This document shows, piece after piece, positions 2,659 through 43,272 of a DNA stretch of 64,000 bases. Position numbers and translations under genes: made by a program. The notes below the pieces were generated by a model that was given only the letters and a program-made list of their open reading frames with translations, did no database searches and was not told the DNA's origin. The stretch lies in IMG/VR virus record IMGVR_UViG_2690316068_000002; one strand, written 5' to 3'. This DNA is from a virus (taxonomy: Duplodnaviria > Heunggongvirae > Uroviricota > Caudoviricetes). Numbering within the stretch: the stretch's first letter is position 1; each line of letters starts with the position of its first letter.

Positions 2659-2958
2659 TATGTTGAAGCTATATATTTTTGAACTCTATCTCTTAAAAAA
2701 GATGTTAATAAGATGCTAACTATTGAAAGGCATAAATATATACAATTCCAACAAACGTTATTTTTAACAAATTTTTTCTCTCTGTTGACTTTTGCGAAAG
2801 CCTTGTCTGGCCTAAATTGCGCGGAAGCTACTTTTTCCTTCCTGAGTTATCCACAGAGTTATGCACTTGCATGCATAACCTATACACACTATCTTAATTC
2901 GCAAGACACTGATGTTGCGGTATTGAAGGTTCATTGGGTTAAAAATAGACATTAAAAA

Positions 2959-2984
2959 GCCCAGTTGACTAGGCTGGGCTTTTT
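2959..2984 (+). terminator. Rho-independent terminator-like hairpin
   Basis: gcccag-N-ctgggc stem followed by TTTTT; A-run on the other side. Confidence 0.45.
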
Positions 2985-3284
2985 AAAAGGAAACAGAGTT
3001 TGCGGCTCTGTTCCTGAGCCATAAGTATCTGGCGACTGAATTAAGATTAACCGAATGTACTGGATTCATCAAGAAACGTTGAGTGGTCATACCAGGTAAT
3101 AATGACCATTTACTAAACATCGTTGTTCTCAAAGAAGATTTAAGTCCAGGTTTTTGGTGACTCTAAAACCTTACCTTAACTCGAAATCGTGCCGTAAGTA
3201 TCTGGCGACTACAGATATTGCAACTGCAAAGGCAAGCCCAAAGGTATTTGCAGCTAGGCGCGATAAAACTAAGTGAGGCCTGTT

Positions 3285-3368
3285 ATGGTTAACTTACTGT
3301 TCAAAATCGTGCCGCCGATGTTCGCGATTATCAAAGCGATCATTGAGTACGTAAACCAGCGTCCATAA
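3285..3368 (+). CDS. Small hydrophobic peptide (27 aa), candidate membrane peptide
   Basis: ATG preceded by GAGG Shine-Dalgarno at about 6 nt; MVNLLFKIVPPMFAIIKAIIEYVNQRP; followed by a strong terminator hairpin. Below ORF-track size cutoff. Confidence 0.25.
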   Translation: MVNLLFKIVPPMFAIIKAIIEYVNQRP

Positions 3369-3381
3369 CGCTAGTTGCTAC

Positions 3382-3410
3382 AGGCCCCATCAAGAGCATG
3401 GGGCCTCTTT
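3382..3410 (+). terminator. Rho-independent terminator
   Basis: aggcccca/tggggcct 8-bp stem followed by CTTTAT. Confidence 0.5.
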
Positions 3411-3423
3411 ATCGTACTATTGC

Positions 3424-4050
3424 TTATTTTTTACGGACTGAGTTGTTCACTGCTCTGGCAATCTTCTCCCGCAATTGCTGCGTTCCGTGGTACTGAACCG
3501 CAATATCTCTCAACTCGTTCACCAGTTCTCGAATCTGGTGATCTTTAAGCTCATTATTTGGGTGATTGGTAACAACTCTGGTTAATTCACCCTTGTCTTT
3601 TGCTCTTACGTATGCAGCTCTTGTGCATTCGACCCATGTATTACCGCCTACATTAACTTCGTAGATTAGGCTGGACTTATCTGTCAATTCGGAACAAATA
3701 CGGGCCGTGGTCTGGCAACTAGAGCATTCGCAGTTATCGCGGAAACCGTGATCTACCGGTCGAGAAAGAGGTTTAACTTTTTCATCCAACTTCATCACAG
3801 CATCGTGATAAGCGTTCCAGCCGTCATCTTTACCAAGTTGATAAATCTCTGAAGGCTCCATGTAGTCTATATCGCAACCTTCTTCATCCGATCTATCTGG
3901 TCGCTTCCCTGGTAATCGCTCATAAAAACAATTTCTGTCTCGACGTTCGGCTCTCAGTGCTAACGCAAGAAGTTGCTCAAGCGAGGTATTTGCACCAGCA
4001 ATAATTTCATTGAGAATATCTTCTGTGAGATCTTTCGCTACCGTGCTCAT
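3424..4050 (-). CDS. Hypothetical protein (Cys-rich)
   Basis: 208-aa ORF; first of a tightly packed, overlapping minus-strand gene array. Confidence 0.5.
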   Translation of the reverse strand: MSTVAKDLTEDILNEIIAGANTSLEQLLALALRAERRDRNCFYERLPGKRPDRSDEEGCDIDYMEPSEIYQLGKDDGWNAYHDAVMKLDEKVKPLSRPVDHGFRDNCECSSCQTTARICSELTDKSSLIYEVNVGGNTWVECTRAAYVRAKDKGELTRVVTNHPNNELKDHQIRELVNELRDIAVQYHGTQQLREKIARAVNNSVRKK

Positions 4051-5792: not shown

Positions 5793-6112
5793 GCTGATCT
5801 CTCTTTCTCTCCCCGGATAATTCTGTTGCACACATCCACACACTCGTCGCAGATGAAAACGGCGTCCCCAGCAATTAACTTTTTGACGGCGTACTGGGAT
5901 TTGTTGCAGAAGCTGCAACAAAGTGTTCGCCTGACTGATAAGGATGGAGCGCCAGATGTCAGCCGCTCCATATCGTTCTTGCGACGCAATATCACACGGC
6001 TGAACTCAACCAGTTTCTCCGGGGATATCTCCTCCTCCGTAGCGAGCGTCTCTAGTCGTTCGAGTATGTTGAAGGCTTTTTCTTGGGTAATAGCAGAGTG
6101 CGATGTGGTCAT
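5789..6112 (-). CDS. ClpX-type zinc-finger domain protein
   Basis: 107 aa; C-terminus [35 protein letters not shown] matches the ClpX N-terminal C4 zinc-binding domain pattern. Confidence 0.55.
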
Positions 6113-6510
6113 TTTCTTTCACCTTCAATGTTCGTGGCGCTGGCAAGATTGTCCTTGCGAAGAAGAGCGGCTATGCGCTTACTTCCATCCGAGATAACGC
6201 CCTCGTAATACTCACGCTGCTCGTTGAGTTTTGATTTTGCCAACTCCAGTTGTTTTGTTAGTTCCGCAATACGGCAAACATCGTTGATACGCGTTTCCTC
6301 TAATGCGTTGATCTCATCCAGTAGTGCCAGCACGGTTTCTGGTCCGGCCAGAAATTTGAAGGCGTTGAGGGCATCAATATCAACACCGCTATCTTTAAGT
6401 TCCTGTTCGCATATCAGATCATCATCAACTGGCAACATTAACAGGCGTTCCATTGCCGGAATTGCACGCTCTGCCGCCTCACGCAGTGCCTGATAGTCAA
6501 TCTTGCTCAC
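6109..6510 (-). CDS. Hypothetical protein, Ead/Ea22-like
   Basis: 133 aa; N-terminus [14 protein letters not shown]... resembles lambdoid early-region Ea22-like proteins. Confidence 0.4.
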
Positions 6511-7007
6511 TGGATGACTCCTTTACGAAGCTGTTCAGCAATACTTACGCATATCTCTGCGCCTCTAATCAGCCCCGGAACGTTCTTGTTTGGCCCAACT
6601 TCACCATCAACAAAATCAATCATCGCGTTACGAGCCATATCCACGCCCTGCGCACGTACTTCAGCCAGAAAAGCATCGGTGGCTGGAGTCTCCGTTAATT
6701 CGCTAACCCAATTATCTCCGTGTTCCTCGGCACACATCGCATCGAATGCTCGCTCAGATTCTTTCAGGGCTGCATTCTCCGCCGCTAATGCGTCTCTCTG
6801 CGCTCGCAACTTCTCAATTTCGGCAGCCATGTAGTAACCAACCATAGCGAAAGTGGCGAAAGGGTAGTCAGAATCATCAGGAGATACGGAGGCCATTAGC
6901 AGACCATCGTGCATGTTCTGGCTTCCATCAGTGATGGATACCGCATAAGAATCGCTGGTTTCCCGTTTATACAATACGACGACCGGGTTCTTGATTTTCT
7001 CTCTCAT
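6507..7007 (-). CDS. Hypothetical protein
   Basis: 166-aa ORF, coupled. Confidence 0.45.
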   Translation of the reverse strand: MREKIKNPVVVLYKRETSDSYAVSITDGSQNMHDGLLMASVSPDDSDYPFATFAMVGYYMAAEIEKLRAQRDALAAENAALKESERAFDAMCAEEHGDNWVSELTETPATDAFLAEVRAQGVDMARNAMIDFVDGEVGPNKNVPGLIRGAEICVSIAEQLRKGVIQ

Positions 7008-37397: not shown

Positions 37398-38471
37398 TTA
37401 CTCTTCTACTGACTCGGTGGGGTTGTCTTTTGCTCTTCGGTCGTCGATTGCCTGCAAAGCCGCAATGATTTCAGCCAGTGGCTTCTCCCGATACATCTCG
37501 ACGATCTGCGATTTGGTGTATTTCTTGTCACCAATTTCAACTCGCCCGCTGGCGTTCTTTGGCAGGTATCCTTCTTCCAGCATGTACTCGACGAGCGATT
37601 CGATAACGTCGAGGCCACGAGTAGGATCGAAGTAGAATTTCCAGGTGCATTTGCCATACGGTGGTGCAACTTTGTTTTTGATGCATTCTGCGCCTACGTC
37701 CTGGCCGATCTTCTCTTTACCATCCTTCATCACCGATGCACCAAGACGGATACGTACAGAAGCGTAGAACTTCGGTGAATCTCCACCTGGCGACGTAGTA
37801 GGGTCGCCAAACATTACACCGATTTTTGTGCGAACCTGATTCAAGAAGATGATGCAGGCGTTGTATTTGCGTGCCCACAAAGCCAGAGTAGGGAAGTTCG
37901 CACTCGTCGCACGAGCCAGTGCCGTATTGTCGTTCATGTTTAGCTGATCTTTGTCTTTGGCAGTGCCTTCAGCCATCTTTTCGAACTTCTCGGCTTTGGA
38001 GTTCGGAACCATAGACGCAAGAGAGTCAGCCACGATACAGATTGGTGCTGATTCGGGGATAAGCTCTTCATCACGAACCAATTTAAGTATTGTGCCGATC
38101 AACTCTACAGAGTCTTCGAAGGTATCTGGCTGCTTGTATACCCACTGACCGTCATCCTCATCTGCGTTCAGGCCATTGGCGACAGCCAGGCCAACGTCAA
38201 AACTGTTTTCATGATCGAGGAATACCGCCAGACCATCTTGTTTTTGAGCGGAGATCATCGCTGCTGTTGCAAGGAACGTTTTCCCTGCACTTGGAGGACC
38301 GAATACTTCGACGATACGACCACATGGGAAGCCGCCATCGTAACGACCAGAAATAGCTTTGTTTAACGGTGGAAAGCCTGTATCAATCCAATGAGTTACT
38401 TTCTGAATTTCGTCGTTGCTACCGATTTTCTTTTTCAGAGCAAGTGCCAGTGCGGATTTTCCTTTTGCCAT
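37398..38471 (-). CDS. RecA-family recombinase
   Basis: 357 aa; Walker A GPPSAGKT; FLNQVRTKIGVMFGDP...KFYASVRI aligns to the RecA core. Confidence 0.85.
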   Translation of the reverse strand: MAKGKSALALALKKKIGSNDEIQKVTHWIDTGFPPLNKAISGRYDGGFPCGRIVEVFGPPSAGKTFLATAAMISAQKQDGLAVFLDHENSFDVGLAVANGLNADEDDGQWVYKQPDTFEDSVELIGTILKLVRDEELIPESAPICIVADSLASMVPNSKAEKFEKMAEGTAKDKDQLNMNDNTALARATSANFPTLALWARKYNACIIFLNQVRTKIGVMFGDPTTSPGGDSPKFYASVRIRLGASVMKDGKEKIGQDVGAECIKNKVAPPYGKCTWKFYFDPTRGLDVIESLVEYMLEEGYLPKNASGRVEIGDKKYTKSQIVEMYREKPLAEIIAALQAIDDRRAKDNPTESVEE

Positions 38472-41322: not shown

Positions 41323-41529
41323 TCTAATAGGTTCCTACTTATAAAATCTGTATCAATTATATCAAACAGAGAACGGGTTTATGGCGTCATGTCAACTTTG
41401 TTCAGGGGAAAATATTGAGATCACCGAAGATAATTAGTTGTCTTATTTTGGTAAGCTGTGCTGACCATCTTTAGGTCACATACATGAGATGGATGGGGGT
41501 GTGGCATGAACGGATGAAATTCAGTCGCC

Positions 41530-41559
41530 GTTGACAGATGTCAACACTGTGAATAGAAT
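41530..41559 (+). promoter_or_regulatory. Sigma70-type promoter with overlapping palindromic operator
   Basis: TTGACA-N17-TAGAAT; -35 lies inside palindrome GTTGACAGATGTCAAC; AGGCG Shine-Dalgarno and ATG at 41577 follow. Confidence 0.6.
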
Positions 41560-41576
41560 ACTATTATCGGAGGCGA

Positions 41577-41801
41577 ATGAAGCAACATCCGAATAAGCAT
41601 ATTCAAGCAGCCATTGACTATGCATTAAGTAAAGGCTGGATCTGGGTAGCTGCTGGTGGTGCTGCACATTGTTTTTGCAGACTGCGATGCGGTAATCCAG
41701 AAGGTGAACACAAAACTCACCAAATGAGCGTATGGTCGACTCCGGGTAATCCCGAAAACCATGCCAAACAGATCAAACGAATGGTTGATCGTTGTAAATG
41801 A
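41577..41801 (+). CDS. Small protein, possible HicA-like toxin
   Basis: 74 aa; GW...G-AH...IKRMV pattern loosely HicA-like; Cys-rich. Confidence 0.3.
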   Translation: MKQHPNKHIQAAIDYALSKGWIWVAAGGAAHCFCRLRCGNPEGEHKTHQMSVWSTPGNPENHAKQIKRMVDRCK

Positions 41802-41861
41802 TTTCAAGGCGGCATTAGCCGCCTTTTGCAGAAACTGTCCAACTATCTTCAAAGGAAAACT

Positions 41862-42425
41862 ATGGCGCTTTATAACTTCACTCTGACGCTCTCAGGCGTA
41901 TCGTATGAGACGGAAGGACTGGAAGACGCGCTGTACCAAAACGGCTGTGACGATGCGCTAATTTGCGCATATGGAAACTCCGTCTATGTAGAATTTGACC
42001 GCGAAGCACAATCACTTGATGCAGCTATCGCATCTGCGGTCGACAATATTGAATCAGCCGGTATCGGTGCAATTGTTGAATCCGTCGACTCGGCTCTTGT
42101 GGGCTTAAGCGATATCGCGGAACTGACAGACCTGTCTCGCCAGGCAGTGGCGTTGCTCAAAGACGGTAAGCGCGGAAGCGGCGACTTCCCTTGCCCTGTA
42201 CAACGCATAAAAGGCCAGTCTCCTCTCTGGGATTGGGCTGATGTGGCTGAATGGCTCATGAATAACGGACGACTTAAAGAGGGCGATCAAATTGTCCAAA
42301 ATGCCCGAACTTTGAGTAAATGGAATCTGGCGCTTCGAAACAGCGTCTCGAAAGATTTCAACGAAATAGAGCAAATTGCGGAGAAACTGATTAAACGCCG
42401 CAAAGATATTGCGAAATGCGCATAA
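41862..42425 (+). CDS. HTH-containing protein, possible antitoxin or regulator
   Basis: ATG at 41862 with AAGGA Shine-Dalgarno; C-terminal LSDIAELTDLSRQAVALL HTH-like segment. Confidence 0.4.
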   Translation: MALYNFTLTLSGVSYETEGLEDALYQNGCDDALICAYGNSVYVEFDREAQSLDAAIASAVDNIESAGIGAIVESVDSALVGLSDIAELTDLSRQAVALLKDGKRGSGDFPCPVQRIKGQSPLWDWADVAEWLMNNGRLKEGDQIVQNARTLSKWNLALRNSVSKDFNEIEQIAEKLIKRRKDIAKCA

Positions 42426-42428
42426 TGA

Positions 42429-42448
42429 TGCCCGCCAATTGGCGGGCA
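42429..42448 (+). terminator. Terminator-like hairpin
   Basis: gcccgcc-aatt-ggcgggc. Confidence 0.4.
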
Positions 42449-42754
42449 TCTGTTCTCTGTAAAGGTGTCTGGCATCGTCTGGTTCGTTAACGTTTACTAA
42501 ACCAATGGTGACAAAAATTAGTTATCTTTGAAAAATAAAGGTTGCATGAAAAGAAGGGGTATGCGTTAATAGCATCGTTGGTTTGCAAGACAGACCTTAT
42601 GTAAGCAGTTTTAGTAAAGCAGTCTCAGTTCAGTGTTATCTTCTGATTTCCCTTCTTCGTGAGTCTCCTCCTTAAGTGCCTAAGTAAGTCCCAATCTATA
42701 CAGATCAAATTCTCGCCGCACTATGTGGCTCACAAAATTAAGAAGGTAATATCT

Positions 42755-42970
42755 ATGTCTAATAAAATGACTGGTTTAGTAAAATGGTTTAACTCTGATA
42801 AAGGCTTTGGCTTTATTTCTCCTGCTGATGGCAGTAAAGATGTTTTTGTACATTTTTCGGCAATTCAGAGTAATAATTTCCGCACTTTGGAAGAAGGCCA
42901 GCAGGTCGAATTCTCTATCGAGAATGGGGCTAAAGGCCCAGCAGCAGCAAATGTCGTTGCTCTAAGTTGA
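42755..42970 (+). CDS. Cold-shock protein, CspA family
   Basis: 71 aa from ATG 42755; [13 protein letters not shown]...[13 protein letters not shown]-track start 42659 lies in the long leader. Confidence 0.9.
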
Positions 42971-43245
42971 TTCAACGCTGATGATCCTCATTTCTACAAT
43001 AACGAAGACGGTGTAAGCCTGAGTGGATAGATTTGTAGGATTGTACAAGTTGAATAAATTAGCATGGTAAGGCCATGCTAATTAAATCGACACAACGGCC
43101 AGTTTATTCCATAAAAGTGAATTGCCCATTGTGGCGAAATGCGGGGTTGCCGCATGAATAGTCAAAGGCAGAAGCTAACTGCCGGCATGGCAAAACAAAG
43201 TGCGTAAGAGGAGTGACTTCCTCAACAAGCGCCATAATTCTTTAT

Positions 43246-43272
43246 AAACCCGCCAACAGGCGGGTTTTCTTT
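43246..43272. terminator. Rho-independent terminator (bidirectional)
   Basis: aaacccgcc-aacag-gcgggtttt. Confidence 0.6.

What the first reader, a model, noticed from the sequence alone, without database searches (positions are those of the whole stretch)
41500..42450. Plus-strand two-gene cassette with palindrome-overlapped consensus promoter (toxin-antitoxin-like)
In an otherwise minus-strand region, a 74-aa protein (loosely HicA-like) and an HTH-containing protein sit behind a textbook sigma70 promoter (TTGACA-N17-TAGAAT) whose -35 lies inside the perfect palindrome GTTGACAGATGTCAAC, and end at their own terminator. The autoregulation-style operator and two-gene layout fit a TA or addiction module. 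The protein family calls are weak.
Basis: partly seen in the sequence, partly recalled or inferred. Interest (0 to 1): 0.5.

Follow-up and report, generated by a model that had tools for sequence, protein, structure and literature searches.

The report
Uncharacterised toxin-antitoxin-like cassette on phage-plasmid
A self-contained two-gene cassette on an SSU5-type E. coli phage-plasmid has the comparative-genomic signature of a toxin-antitoxin module that represses its own promoter, but its proteins belong to no characterised family (the "HicA/HicB" label in a sister genome is not borne out) and nobody has tested it.

Summary
Gene A (41577-41801, 74 aa) and gene B (41862-42425, 187 aa) lie on the + strand behind TTGACA-N17-TAGAAT, with a terminator at 42427-42450. 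The "perfect palindrome" is really two 7-bp arms around a 2-nt centre.

Comparison across genomes makes the cassette meaningful. A family relatives occur in many phyla, and A is almost always followed by a relative of B's N-terminal domain. GTTGAC-N4-GTCAAC or a symmetric variant lies over the -35 in 49 of 54 loci where B carries the DNA-binding domain. It is absent from all 19 loci where B lacks that domain. A is often broken or deleted while B survives. The reverse was seen once, in a metagenome contig. This asymmetry fits A as toxin and B as antitoxin and autorepressor.

Both proteins match PADLOC's untested defence candidate PDC-M06. The cassette is transcribed in lysogens of the near-identical phage-plasmid Cyrano. 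I rate it a new variant of a known kind, of moderate interest.

The parts
41530..41545 (+). Operator: inverted repeat GTTGACA-GA-TGTCAAC (core GTTGAC-N4-GTCAAC) overlapping the -35 hexamer. Inferred binding site of a B dimer.
   Evidence: Sequence read. The core motif or its symmetric variant GTTGTCA-N2-TGACAAC occurs within 110 nt upstream of A in 49 of 54 loci with a long B (43 exact) and in 0 of 19 loci with a short B. There is one copy in the window and one in the whole 108-kb Cyrano genome.
41531..41559 (+). Sigma-70-type promoter: -35 TTGACA (41531-41536), 17-nt spacer, -10 TAGAAT (41554-41559).
   Evidence: Matches 11 of 12 positions and is the only such site in the window. -10-like hexamers lie at the same distance in orthologous loci. 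The genes are expressed in lysogens of the near-identical Cyrano.
41569..41573 (+). Shine-Dalgarno GGAGG of gene A, about 3 nt from the expected transcript start, which implies a very short leader.
   Evidence: Sequence read. GGAGG or GGAG is conserved upstream of A in Enterobacterales loci. The transcript start itself is inferred, not mapped.
41577..41801 (+). Gene A, 74 aa: the candidate toxin. It is a small alpha-beta-beta-(alpha)-beta-alpha protein. H4 and P56 are invariant, and H31, C38, C73, W21 and T55 are nearly so. Position 48 is Cys or His.
   Evidence: PADLOC PDC-M06A E = 1.2e-19. PHROG 5923, function unknown. No Pfam or NCBIfam family.
41806..41827 (+). Intergenic stem-loop AAGGCGGC-ATTA-GCCGCCTT followed by TT. 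Possibly a partial terminator, attenuator or RNA-stability element between A and B.
   Evidence: 8-bp stem; the 71-nt region folds at -16.7 kcal/mol, z = -1.9. About 20 Enterobacterales loci carry a GC-rich hairpin of different sequence at this position, whereas compact versions have overlapping stop and start codons. Lysogen RNA levels are A 30x and B 14x above background.
41862..42425 (+). Gene B, 187 aa: the candidate antitoxin and autorepressor. Residues 1-75 form a ferredoxin-like beta-alpha-beta-beta-alpha-beta domain (41862-42086). Residues about 79-135 form a MerR/AlpA/excisionase-type winged helix-turn-helix (42096-42266). Residues 143-186 form a helical hairpin (42288-42419).
   Evidence: PADLOC PDC-M06B E = 1.3e-32. 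PHROG 2620 'excisionase and transcriptional regulator' E = 2.4e-105. No Pfam or NCBIfam family. No similarity to E. coli HicB.
42427..42460 (+). Intrinsic terminator of the cassette: GATGCCCGCC-AATT-GGCGGGCATC followed by a T-rich tail.
   Evidence: 10-bp stem, 8 G-C pairs.

Best explanation
I propose that this is an autonomous type II toxin-antitoxin-like module carried as an accessory gene set (a 'moron') by an SSU5-type phage-plasmid.

One sigma-70 promoter transcribes A and then B. B is a modular antitoxin and repressor. Its winged helix-turn-helix, probably dimerised through the C-terminal helical hairpin, binds the inverted repeat GTTGAC-N4-GTCAAC over the -35 hexamer and shuts off its own promoter. 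Its N-terminal ferredoxin-like domain binds and neutralises A.

A is a roughly 8-kDa alpha/beta protein whose fold most resembles HicA. It has two invariant or nearly invariant histidines and a Cys/His set that looks like a structural zinc site. When free it is harmful to the cell, possibly acting as a ribonuclease as HicA does.

If the plasmid is lost, or if host gene expression is shut off (for example by an infecting phage), B would no longer be replenished and A would be released. That would give post-segregational killing, abortive infection, or both.

What is shown: the anatomy, the conservation patterns, and transcription in lysogens. What is inferred: B binding to the operator, the A-B interaction, A's toxicity and chemistry, and B's instability.
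For: Module integrity:
- A relatives form 740 clusters at 50% identity and were found in 74 species-level genomes from Enterobacterales to Planctomycetota, Cyanobacteria and Bacteroidota.
- A B relative lies directly downstream in 67 of 74 loci by tblastn.
- An HMM of B residues 1-80 detects the downstream ORF in 71 loci, including 17 of the 19 short partners.
- Compact versions have overlapping stop and start codons.

Modular antitoxin:
- In Planctomycetota, Nitrospinota and related groups the partner is only 80-118 aa, which is the N-terminal domain alone.
- That domain is therefore the part tied to A.

Operator:
- It is present in 49 of 54 loci with a long B and 0 of 19 with a short B.
- Its centre and flanks vary freely.
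- Three clade-specific variants change both arms symmetrically: TTGACA/TGTCAA, TTTACA/TGTAAA and TTGTCA/TGACAA. Each goes with a different putative recognition helix: SRQAxAxLK, TRAAxSNYA and SRQNIxKL.
- Only one copy exists in the window and in the whole Cyrano genome.

Asymmetric decay:
- A is frameshifted, stopped or truncated in 11 of 74 loci found through A, and B is intact in 10 of those.
- Among 65 viral loci found through B, A has a stop in 1. It is cleanly deleted in 3, where the promoter and operator now drive B. In 5 more it is deleted together with the promoter and the first ~21 codons of B.

Mobility:
- The pair sits in phage-plasmids, including Y. pestis pMT1-size plasmids.
- It also sits inside an ICE conjugation operon.
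- In Morganella it is a lone two-gene insert in the core chromosome.
- In E. coli it occurs in 110 of 5426 complete genomes, always on plasmids.

Folds:

Other support:
- PADLOC PDC-M06A/B match at 1.2e-19 and 1.3e-32.
- In LF82 lysogens the Cyrano orthologues are transcribed 30x (A) and 14x (B) above the prophage background (PMC9928086).
Against: - No experiment exists for any member of either family. PDC-M06 appears in no paper text in the library, and PDC systems are unpublished candidates.
- One B-seeded metagenome contig (L129) has an intact A while B has lost its first ~15 codons and its ribosome-binding site.
- A hairpin between the genes, and roughly twice as much A as B RNA, is an unusual balance if A is a toxin.
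- Neither the promoter match nor the palindrome is individually beyond chance within the window.
- The loci are phylogenetically related, so counts such as 49/54 against 0/19 are not independent events.
- The zinc site and the A-B contact are inferred from conservation only.
Confidence: 0.62

Rival explanations
1. The cassette is primarily an anti-phage defence or superinfection-exclusion system (PADLOC candidate PDC-M06), not a plasmid-addiction module. The resident phage-plasmid would use it to abort infection by competing phages. A would be the effector and B the sensor and inhibitor. This shares the molecular mechanism with the best explanation and differs only in the selected function.
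For: Both proteins match the PDC-M06 models and are adjacent, as the model requires. The cassette is an expressed moron of a prophage-like element. It lies in a variable spot between the uvsY-like gene and dnaE, where sister plasmids carry a different or decayed insert. It also occurs in an ICE. The element carries other toxin-antitoxin modules (KacT and RelE/ParE types) and a ParA-type partition system elsewhere, so addiction is already provided for.
Against: PDC systems are unpublished and untested candidates. No paper in the library mentions PDC-M06. A DefenseFinder-based survey of SSU5-type phage-plasmids does not mention this cassette among the defence systems it reports. The lone chromosomal copy in Morganella lies between housekeeping genes, not in a defence island.
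Confidence: 0.3
2. This is a genuine, merely divergent HicA-HicB system, as annotated in the Cyrano record. A would be a ribosome-independent mRNA interferase using the HicA catalytic histidine, and B would be a HicB.
Confidence: 0.1
3. This is a non-toxic regulatory pair. B is a transcription factor, and A is a small zinc-binding co-regulator, anti-repressor or nucleic-acid-binding protein that modulates B or a host process. Nothing kills the cell.
For: A's conservation pattern (H4, H31, C38, C/H48, C73, and often C-x-H at the C-terminus) fits a small zinc-binding domain. No sequence family assigns a toxic activity. The L129 contig has an intact A with a damaged B. A's RNA is more abundant than B's.
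Against: B's operator occurs once in the whole element, so B regulates only its own promoter. Short-partner versions have no DNA-binding domain at all yet keep the pairing, so the core function is an A to B-N-domain protein relationship, not transcription. A repeatedly decays while B is retained, and A was never found without a partner gene, with L129 the only intact A whose partner is damaged. The patchy, mobile, stand-alone distribution is typical of selfish or defence modules.
Confidence: 0.15
4. The promoter and palindrome are a chance juxtaposition, and the two ORFs have no joint function.
For: An 11 of 12 promoter match is expected about 1.3 times per window by chance, and inverted repeats with 7-bp arms are common (54 in the window).
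Against: The motif sits at the same position upstream of A in dozens of genera with unrelated flanks. Gene order and adjacency are conserved across phyla. Both genes are transcribed in lysogens.
Confidence: 0.01

Closest known systems
HicAB type II toxin-antitoxin systems (E. coli K-12 hicAB; solved complexes 5yrz, 6g26, 4p78)
   Different: No sequence-level membership can be shown. A has conserved Cys/His positions suggesting a metal site and an invariant N-terminal His-Pro that are absent from the E. coli HicA family. B's N-terminal domain is ferredoxin-like, not HicB-like. Its DNA-binding domain is a MerR/AlpA/excisionase-type winged helix, not the ribbon-helix-helix or Xre type known for HicB from the literature.
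PADLOC phage-defence candidate PDC-M06 (models PDLC04382-04388)
   Same: A matches all six PDC-M06A models (best 1.2e-19). B matches PDC-M06B (1.3e-32 over residues 3-161). The two genes are adjacent. By these models this is the same family.
   Different: PDC-M06 is only a computational candidate with no published description, mechanism or test. The operator, the domain anatomy, the short-partner forms and the asymmetric decay described here are not part of that entry.
AlpA/excisionase/MerR-type winged helix-turn-helix regulators (for example 8c3t GIsul2 excisionase, 5d8c HiNmlR, TerS N-domains 7lxs and 6hn7)
   Different: No Pfam HTH_17 or MerR match was found. The domain is embedded between a ferredoxin-like domain and a helical hairpin. 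There is no link to recombination or to metal or drug sensing. The site overlaps the -35, which suggests repression rather than MerR-style spacer remodelling.
Other toxin-first type II modules (higBA, mqsRA)
   Same: The toxin gene lies upstream of the antitoxin, and the antitoxin carries the DNA-binding domain. This comparison rests on my background knowledge of these systems.

Membership tests
HicA toxin family (Pfam PF07927) | Significant match to the HicA_toxin sequence profile | tested here: not met
   No hit for A at E <= 1. None of 109 diverse family members hits HicA_toxin. Genuine E. coli-type HicA proteins in the same database do carry PF07927.
HicA toxin family (Pfam PF07927) | dsRBD-like alpha1-beta1-beta2-beta3-alpha2 fold superposable on solved HicA | tested here: inconclusive
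HicA toxin family (Pfam PF07927) | Conserved catalytic histidine at the start of strand beta-2 | tested here: inconclusive
   H31 is conserved in 104 of 109 members and lies immediately before beta-2. E. coli-type HicA has an invariant H23 in the same topological place. No residue-level superposition was available. hhalign instead aligned A's N-terminal HPNK-helix with HicA's PRHP-helix.
HicA toxin family (Pfam PF07927) | Ribosome-independent RNase activity and toxicity neutralised by the partner | not testable with these tools
   Needs expression and biochemical assays.
HicB antitoxin family | Sequence match to HicB profiles or to E. coli HicB | tested here: not met
   No Pfam or NCBIfam hit. 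BLASTP against E. coli K-12 HicB gives E = 0.51.
HicB antitoxin family | HicB-type N-terminal domain with a ribbon-helix-helix or Xre-type DNA-binding domain (features as I know them from the literature) | tested here: not met
Type II toxin-antitoxin module (generic) | Two small adjacent co-oriented genes forming one transcription unit | tested here: met
   One promoter and one terminal terminator. Adjacency is conserved in 71-73 of 74 loci. Compact versions have overlapping stop and start codons. Both genes are transcribed in lysogens. An intergenic hairpin may cause partial termination.
Type II toxin-antitoxin module (generic) | Antitoxin carries a DNA-binding domain and autoregulates through an inverted repeat at the promoter | tested here: inconclusive
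   The sequence evidence is strong. The operator overlaps the -35, is conserved in 49 of 54 long-B loci and 0 of 19 short-B loci, changes symmetrically on both arms, and has a single genomic copy. Binding and repression themselves were not testable.
Type II toxin-antitoxin module (generic) | Toxin not found without antitoxin, while orphan or surviving antitoxins occur | tested here: met
   No A-seeded locus has an intact A without a partner ORF. A is disrupted with B intact in 10 loci. A has a stop or is deleted with B kept in 9 of 65 B-seeded viral loci. There is one exception, L129.
Type II toxin-antitoxin module (generic) | Toxicity of one product, neutralisation by direct binding of the other, labile antitoxin | not testable with these tools
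These properties need wet-lab assays.
PADLOC PDC-M06 candidate system | Adjacent genes matching the PDC-M06A and PDC-M06B models | tested here: met
   A: 1.2e-19 to 2.7e-08 on six models. B: 1.3e-32. The genes are 60 nt apart.
PADLOC PDC-M06 candidate system | Protection against phage infection | not testable with these tools
   No published test was found.

The most novel reading that the evidence does not exclude
A may not be a HicA-type RNase at all. It may found a new family of small zinc-stabilised effectors with invariant His4 and His31 and a Cys38 / Cys-or-His48 / Cys73 metal site. Its dedicated inhibitor would be a previously undescribed ferredoxin-like antitoxin domain. On this reading the pair (PADLOC PDC-M06) is a widespread abortive-infection system that phage-plasmids, ICEs and chromosomes use against competing phages, and the ferredoxin-like domain is the element that senses the trigger.
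Probability: 0.2. Interest if true: 0.65.

Novelty: new variant of a known kind. Interest (0 to 1): 0.42.

Why it matters
If confirmed, this would add a new toxin-antitoxin or defence family that is already widespread. A family relatives form 740 clusters at 50% identity and occur from Enterobacterales to Planctomycetota and Cyanobacteria. The cassette is carried by about 2% of complete E. coli genomes on SSU5-type phage-plasmids and by Yersinia pestis pMT1-size plasmids.

It would correct an annotation ('HicA/HicB') that is not supported for B and only weakly for A. It would give PADLOC's anonymous candidate PDC-M06 a concrete, testable mechanism: a defined operator, a defined neutralising domain and candidate catalytic and metal-binding residues. 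It would also provide a clean natural example of modular antitoxin evolution, in which the same toxin-binding domain occurs with or without a DNA-binding domain and the operator appears only in the former case.

For phage-plasmid biology it bears on how these elements persist and compete in clinical Enterobacteriaceae. It is not a new principle, so the interest is moderate.

Tried and rejected
- Pfam and NCBIfam scans of A and B gave nothing usable. The RuBisCO_small and CagE/TrbE hits are below threshold and I treat them as noise. The RuBisCO_small hit recurs weakly in 19 of 109 family members and probably explains one NCBI misnaming.
- A profile search of all PDB sequences with the A family returned only a spurious thioredoxin-glutathione reductase match.
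- hhalign of the A family against an E. coli-type HicA alignment gave only a 17-19 column local match that is not colinear with the fold. I therefore rejected it as proof of homology. The HicA alignment was narrow (67-98% identity), which limits this test.
- Foldseek against the PDB for A gave nothing significant.
- The afdb50 library was unavailable.
- I searched for extra operator copies that would make B a wider regulator. There are none at up to 1 mismatch in the window or in the 108-kb Cyrano genome. The few 2-mismatch sites look like chance.
- Literature searches for PDC-M06, for phage Cyrano and for SSU5 phage-plasmid toxin-antitoxin systems, plus a read of an SSU5 phage-plasmid defence survey, found only the Cyrano annotation and RNA-seq table and no functional work.
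- I first assumed the window is Cyrano itself. I rejected this because Cyrano's recA carries a LAGLIDADG intein that is absent here.
- I considered reading B as the toxin and A as the antitoxin. I rejected it because A is the gene that decays while B persists, and because the DNA-binding domain is on B.
Full report
WHAT IS THERE

The region contains two + strand genes in a run of - strand replication and recombination genes (RecA-like, 5'-3' exonuclease, gp32-like SSB, UvsY-like, then dnaE). Gene A is 41577-41801 (74 aa). Gene B is 41862-42425 (187 aa from the ATG at 41862, preceded by AGGA).

Upstream lies TTGACA (41531-41536), 17 nt, TAGAAT (41554-41559), which matches 11 of 12 consensus positions. 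The -35 lies in the left arm of GTTGACA-GA-TGTCAAC (41530-41545). This is an inverted repeat with 7-bp arms and a 2-nt centre.

A strong hairpin terminator follows B at 42427-42450. A second GC-rich hairpin with a short T-run lies between A and B at 41806-41827.

Within the window alone these signals are not statistically remarkable. The promoter is the only 11/12 site, but shuffles yield 1.3 such sites. There are 54 inverted repeats with arms of at least 7 bp.

The + strand island continues with a separate, complete cspA-type gene and its thermoregulator leader (Rfam RF01766, 187 bits, 42577-42994; Pfam CSD 1.4e-33).

WHERE THE WINDOW COMES FROM

The cassette is 99.8% identical to Escherichia phage Cyrano (pLF82), an SSU5-type phage-plasmid of E. 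coli LF82. It is 100% identical to several E. coli plasmids of about 95-150 kb. The window is not Cyrano itself, because Cyrano's recA carries a LAGLIDADG intein that is absent here.

In Cyrano the two genes are annotated 'HicA toxin protein' and 'putative antitoxin HicB'. RefSeq calls them 'hypothetical protein' and 'helix-turn-helix transcriptional regulator'.

The paper describing Cyrano reports RNA-seq of the lysogen. CYRAN_51 (A) is 30-fold and CYRAN_50 (B) 14-fold above the prophage background, and they are listed as an expressed moron. No functional test was done (PMC9928086).

In E. coli the cassette occurs in 110 of 5426 complete genomes, always on a plasmid and always in one copy. 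In PLSDB it occurs in 313 plasmids, mostly non-mobilizable and about 100-115 kb. These come from Escherichia, Enterobacter, Yersinia (including pMT1-size Y. pestis plasmids), Citrobacter, Klebsiella and Cronobacter.

FAMILY ASSIGNMENTS

Neither protein matches any Pfam or NCBIfam family. PHROGs places A in phrog_5923 (unknown function) and B in phrog_2620 ('excisionase and transcriptional regulator').

PADLOC recognises both. A matches PDC-M06A (best 1.2e-19) and B matches PDC-M06B (1.3e-32). PDC systems are unpublished computational candidates, and no paper text in the library mentions PDC-M06.

PROTEIN A

The word-indexed search found 55 relatives. A profile search of 1.84 billion representatives found 740 clusters at E <= 1e-3.

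No other test confirms a HicA relationship:
- Foldseek finds nothing significant and no HicA.
- None of 109 diverse members hits Pfam HicA_toxin.
- A profile search of PDB sequences finds no HicA.
- hhalign against an E. coli-type HicA alignment gives only a local match (probability 71%) between A's N-terminal 'RHPNKeIeaAIxyA' and HicA's 'MPRHPxxEIkexLrkaI'. That match is not colinear with the fold superposition.

Conservation across 109 members is informative:

| Position | Conservation (of 109) |
|---|---|
| H4 | 109 |
| P56 | 109 |
| H31 | 104 |
| C38 | 108 |
| C73 | 108 |
| W21 | 107 |
| T55 | 105 |
| 48 | Cys in 78, His in 24 |

Many members end in C-x-H, and one subgroup has an extra CxC...C insert. 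A Cys/His interchange at one position, together with invariant Cys residues, is what a structural zinc site looks like. That is my inference, and I could not measure distances in the model. E. coli-type HicA has no such residues. H31 lies just before strand beta-2, topologically where HicA has its essential histidine.

My conclusion is that A works like, and may be distantly related to, HicA, but membership is not established.

PROTEIN B

The model (pLDDT 88.8) has three parts:
- Residues 1-75 form a beta-alpha-beta-beta-alpha-beta domain.
- Residues about 79-135 form a winged helix-turn-helix.
- Residues 143-186 form a helical hairpin.

COMPARATIVE GENOMICS: THE DECISIVE EVIDENCE

(1) Pairing. 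A scan seeded on A recovered 74 species-level loci. They come from Enterobacterales, Pasteurellaceae, Neisseria, Pseudoalteromonas, Planctomycetota, Verrucomicrobiota, Cyanobacteria, Bacteroidota, Nitrospinota and Acidobacteria.
- tblastn finds B directly downstream in 67 of them.
- An HMM of B residues 1-80, built only from enterobacterial sequences, detects the downstream ORF in 71.
- Two more loci have an ORF of the same size and position.
- The last is a decayed remnant (L053).

(2) Modularity. In 19 loci, mostly Planctomycetota and other non-proteobacterial phyla, the partner is only 80-118 aa. It is the ferredoxin-like domain with no DNA-binding part. That domain is therefore what is functionally tied to A.

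(3) Operator. GTTGAC-N4-GTCAAC or GTTGTCA-N2-TGACAAC (up to 2 mismatches) lies within 110 nt upstream of A in 49 of 54 loci with a long B, and 43 of those are exact. It is absent from all 19 loci with a short B.
- The 4 central bases and the flanks vary freely between genera.
- Three clade-specific variants change both arms symmetrically, and the putative recognition helix differs in step:

| Clade | Operator arms | Putative recognition helix |
|---|---|---|
| Enterobacterales | TTGACA/TGTCAA | SRQAxAxLK |
| Pasteurellaceae | TTTACA/TGTAAA | TRAAxSNYA |
| Cyanobacteria and Marinospirillum | TTGTCA/TGACAA | SRQNIxKL |

- In each case the repeat includes a -35-like hexamer, with a -10-like hexamer about 17 nt downstream.
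- The operator occurs once in the window and once in the 108-kb Cyrano genome. B therefore looks like a dedicated autoregulator.

(4) Asymmetric decay.
- In the A-seeded set, A is frameshifted, prematurely stopped or truncated in 11 of 74 loci. B is intact in 10 of these.
- In a B-seeded scan of viral contigs (65 loci), A is intact in 50 and carries a stop codon in 1.
- In 3 of these loci A is cleanly deleted, so the promoter and operator now drive B directly.
- In 5 loci A is deleted together with the promoter and B's first ~21 codons. This last type is also seen in plasmid pTB212 at the same uvsY-dnaE position.
- The remaining 7 loci hold distant proteins with only the N-terminal domain and no A.
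- No A-seeded locus has an intact A without a partner.
- The single exception overall is L129, a metagenome contig with an intact A and a B that lacks its first ~15 codons and ribosome-binding site.

(5) Mobility. The same pair sits inside an ICE type IV secretion operon in Yersiniaceae. It also occurs as a lone two-gene insert between the opp operon and cls in the Morganella core chromosome.

HOW IT MOST LIKELY WORKS

The promoter gives a bicistronic A-B transcript. Transcription in lysogens is shown. The transcript start, predicted near 41566, would leave a leader of only about 10 nt and is inferred.

The proposed steps are all inferred:
1. A B dimer binds the inverted repeat over the -35 and represses.
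2. B's N-terminal domain binds and neutralises A.
3. Free A harms the cell, possibly as a His-dependent RNase on a zinc-stabilised HicA-like scaffold. This is a weak inference.
4. Loss of the plasmid, or shut-off of host expression by an invading phage, depletes B and frees A.

The intergenic hairpin is found in about 20 enterobacterial loci with unrelated sequences and is absent from compact versions. It may attenuate read-through, which would fit the roughly 2:1 A:B RNA ratio. How that balance is compatible with a toxin is unexplained. A's very short leader, and TTG start codons in some lineages, might limit its translation.

Whether the selected role is plasmid addiction or phage exclusion cannot be decided here. 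The element already carries ParA-type partition genes and KacT-type and RelE/ParE-type modules. PADLOC lists the pair as a defence candidate.

VERDICT

The toxin-antitoxin-like interpretation is supported by strong comparative evidence but is untested.

The cassette belongs to PADLOC's uncharacterised PDC-M06. It resembles HicAB in layout and in the toxin's fold. It fails the membership tests for HicB, and for HicA it fails the sequence-profile test while the fold and catalytic-histidine tests are inconclusive.

I rate it a new variant of a known kind. Interest is moderate (0.42). Confidence is 0.62 in the mechanism as a whole, about 0.8 for autorepression at the operator and about 0.3 for HicA-like RNase chemistry.

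Noticed in passing
window 42577-42994 (CDS 42755-42970); terminator-like hairpin 43246-43267: A complete cspA-type cold-shock gene with its thermoregulator leader lies just downstream on the + strand (Rfam RF01766 at 187 bits; Pfam CSD 1.4e-33). It is not annotated in the Cyrano record and is absent from the sister plasmid pTB212. It looks like a second, independent moron in the same insertion spot.
   Followed up: partly
window 41806-41827: A GC-rich hairpin with a short T-run lies between genes A and B. About 20 enterobacterial orthologous loci have a hairpin there with unrelated sequences, while other clades have overlapping stop and start codons. It may explain the 30x versus 14x RNA levels reported for Cyrano.
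   Followed up: partly
window 37398-38471 versus L001 2833-5172: The RecA-like gene here is 357 aa and uninterrupted. In phage Cyrano it is 779 aa because of a LAGLIDADG intein (Pfam Intein_splicing and LAGLIDADG_3). The window is therefore a close relative of Cyrano, not Cyrano itself.
   Followed up: yes
protein A residues 1-17 (window 41577-41627): hhalign aligns A's N-terminal 'HPNKHIQAAIDYA' with HicA's C-terminal 'PRHPxxEIkexLrkaI' (strand beta-3 to helix alpha-2) at 71% probability. This is out of register with the fold superposition. It could be a convergent motif, a trace of circular permutation or chance.
   Followed up: partly
protein A residues 4, 31, 38, 48, 73 (window 41586-41795): The conservation pattern suggests a structural zinc site that canonical HicA lacks: C38 and C73 are nearly invariant, position 48 is Cys or His, and H4 and H31 are conserved. 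Many homologues end in C-x-H, and one subgroup has an extra CxC..C insert.
   Followed up: partly
L072 6001-6675 (Pectobacterium versatile): A deletion has fused the first ~36 codons of A in frame to B. The result is an A'-B fusion ORF of about 224 aa behind an intact operator.
   Followed up: no
L126, L130, L131 (IMG/VR contigs), about 2940-3560: In these loci A is precisely missing and the operator and promoter sit directly in front of a full-length B. In L126 a PrlF-antitoxin-like 60-aa ORF follows (Pfam 4.1e-08).
   Followed up: partly
L144-L150 (three IMG/VR contigs, two copies each), about 2974-3246: Stand-alone 84-90 aa proteins resembling B's N-terminal domain (41-45% identity) occur without any A. 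Each lies next to a Cys-rich 141-156 aa ORF. The ferredoxin-like domain may pair with other partners.
   Followed up: no
L129 2650-3060 (IMG/VR metagenome contig): This is the only locus seen with an intact A, all conserved residues present and an apparent TTG start, but a B that lacks its first ~15 codons and its ribosome-binding site. It could be a real exception, a case where B is supplied in trans, or an assembly artefact.
   Followed up: partly
L013 (Yersinia pestis NCTC5923 contig) about 5950-6890; also L114-L117 and L142: The Y. pestis-type version has a degenerate operator (GTTGACACGCGCTCAC) and an A extended to 83 aa, while B is intact. Autoregulation may be relaxed in that lineage.
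   Followed up: no
A-family homologues (P0039 and others): Weak sub-threshold Pfam RuBisCO_small hits recur in 19 of 109 family members. One Shewanella homologue is named 'ribulose bisphosphate carboxylase small subunit' at NCBI, which is probably an annotation artefact.
   Followed up: no
L034 8394-8735 (Mannheimia indoligenes): A second, partial B-like match (39% identity, query residues 37-152) lies about 2 kb downstream of the main cassette in the same locus.
   Followed up: no
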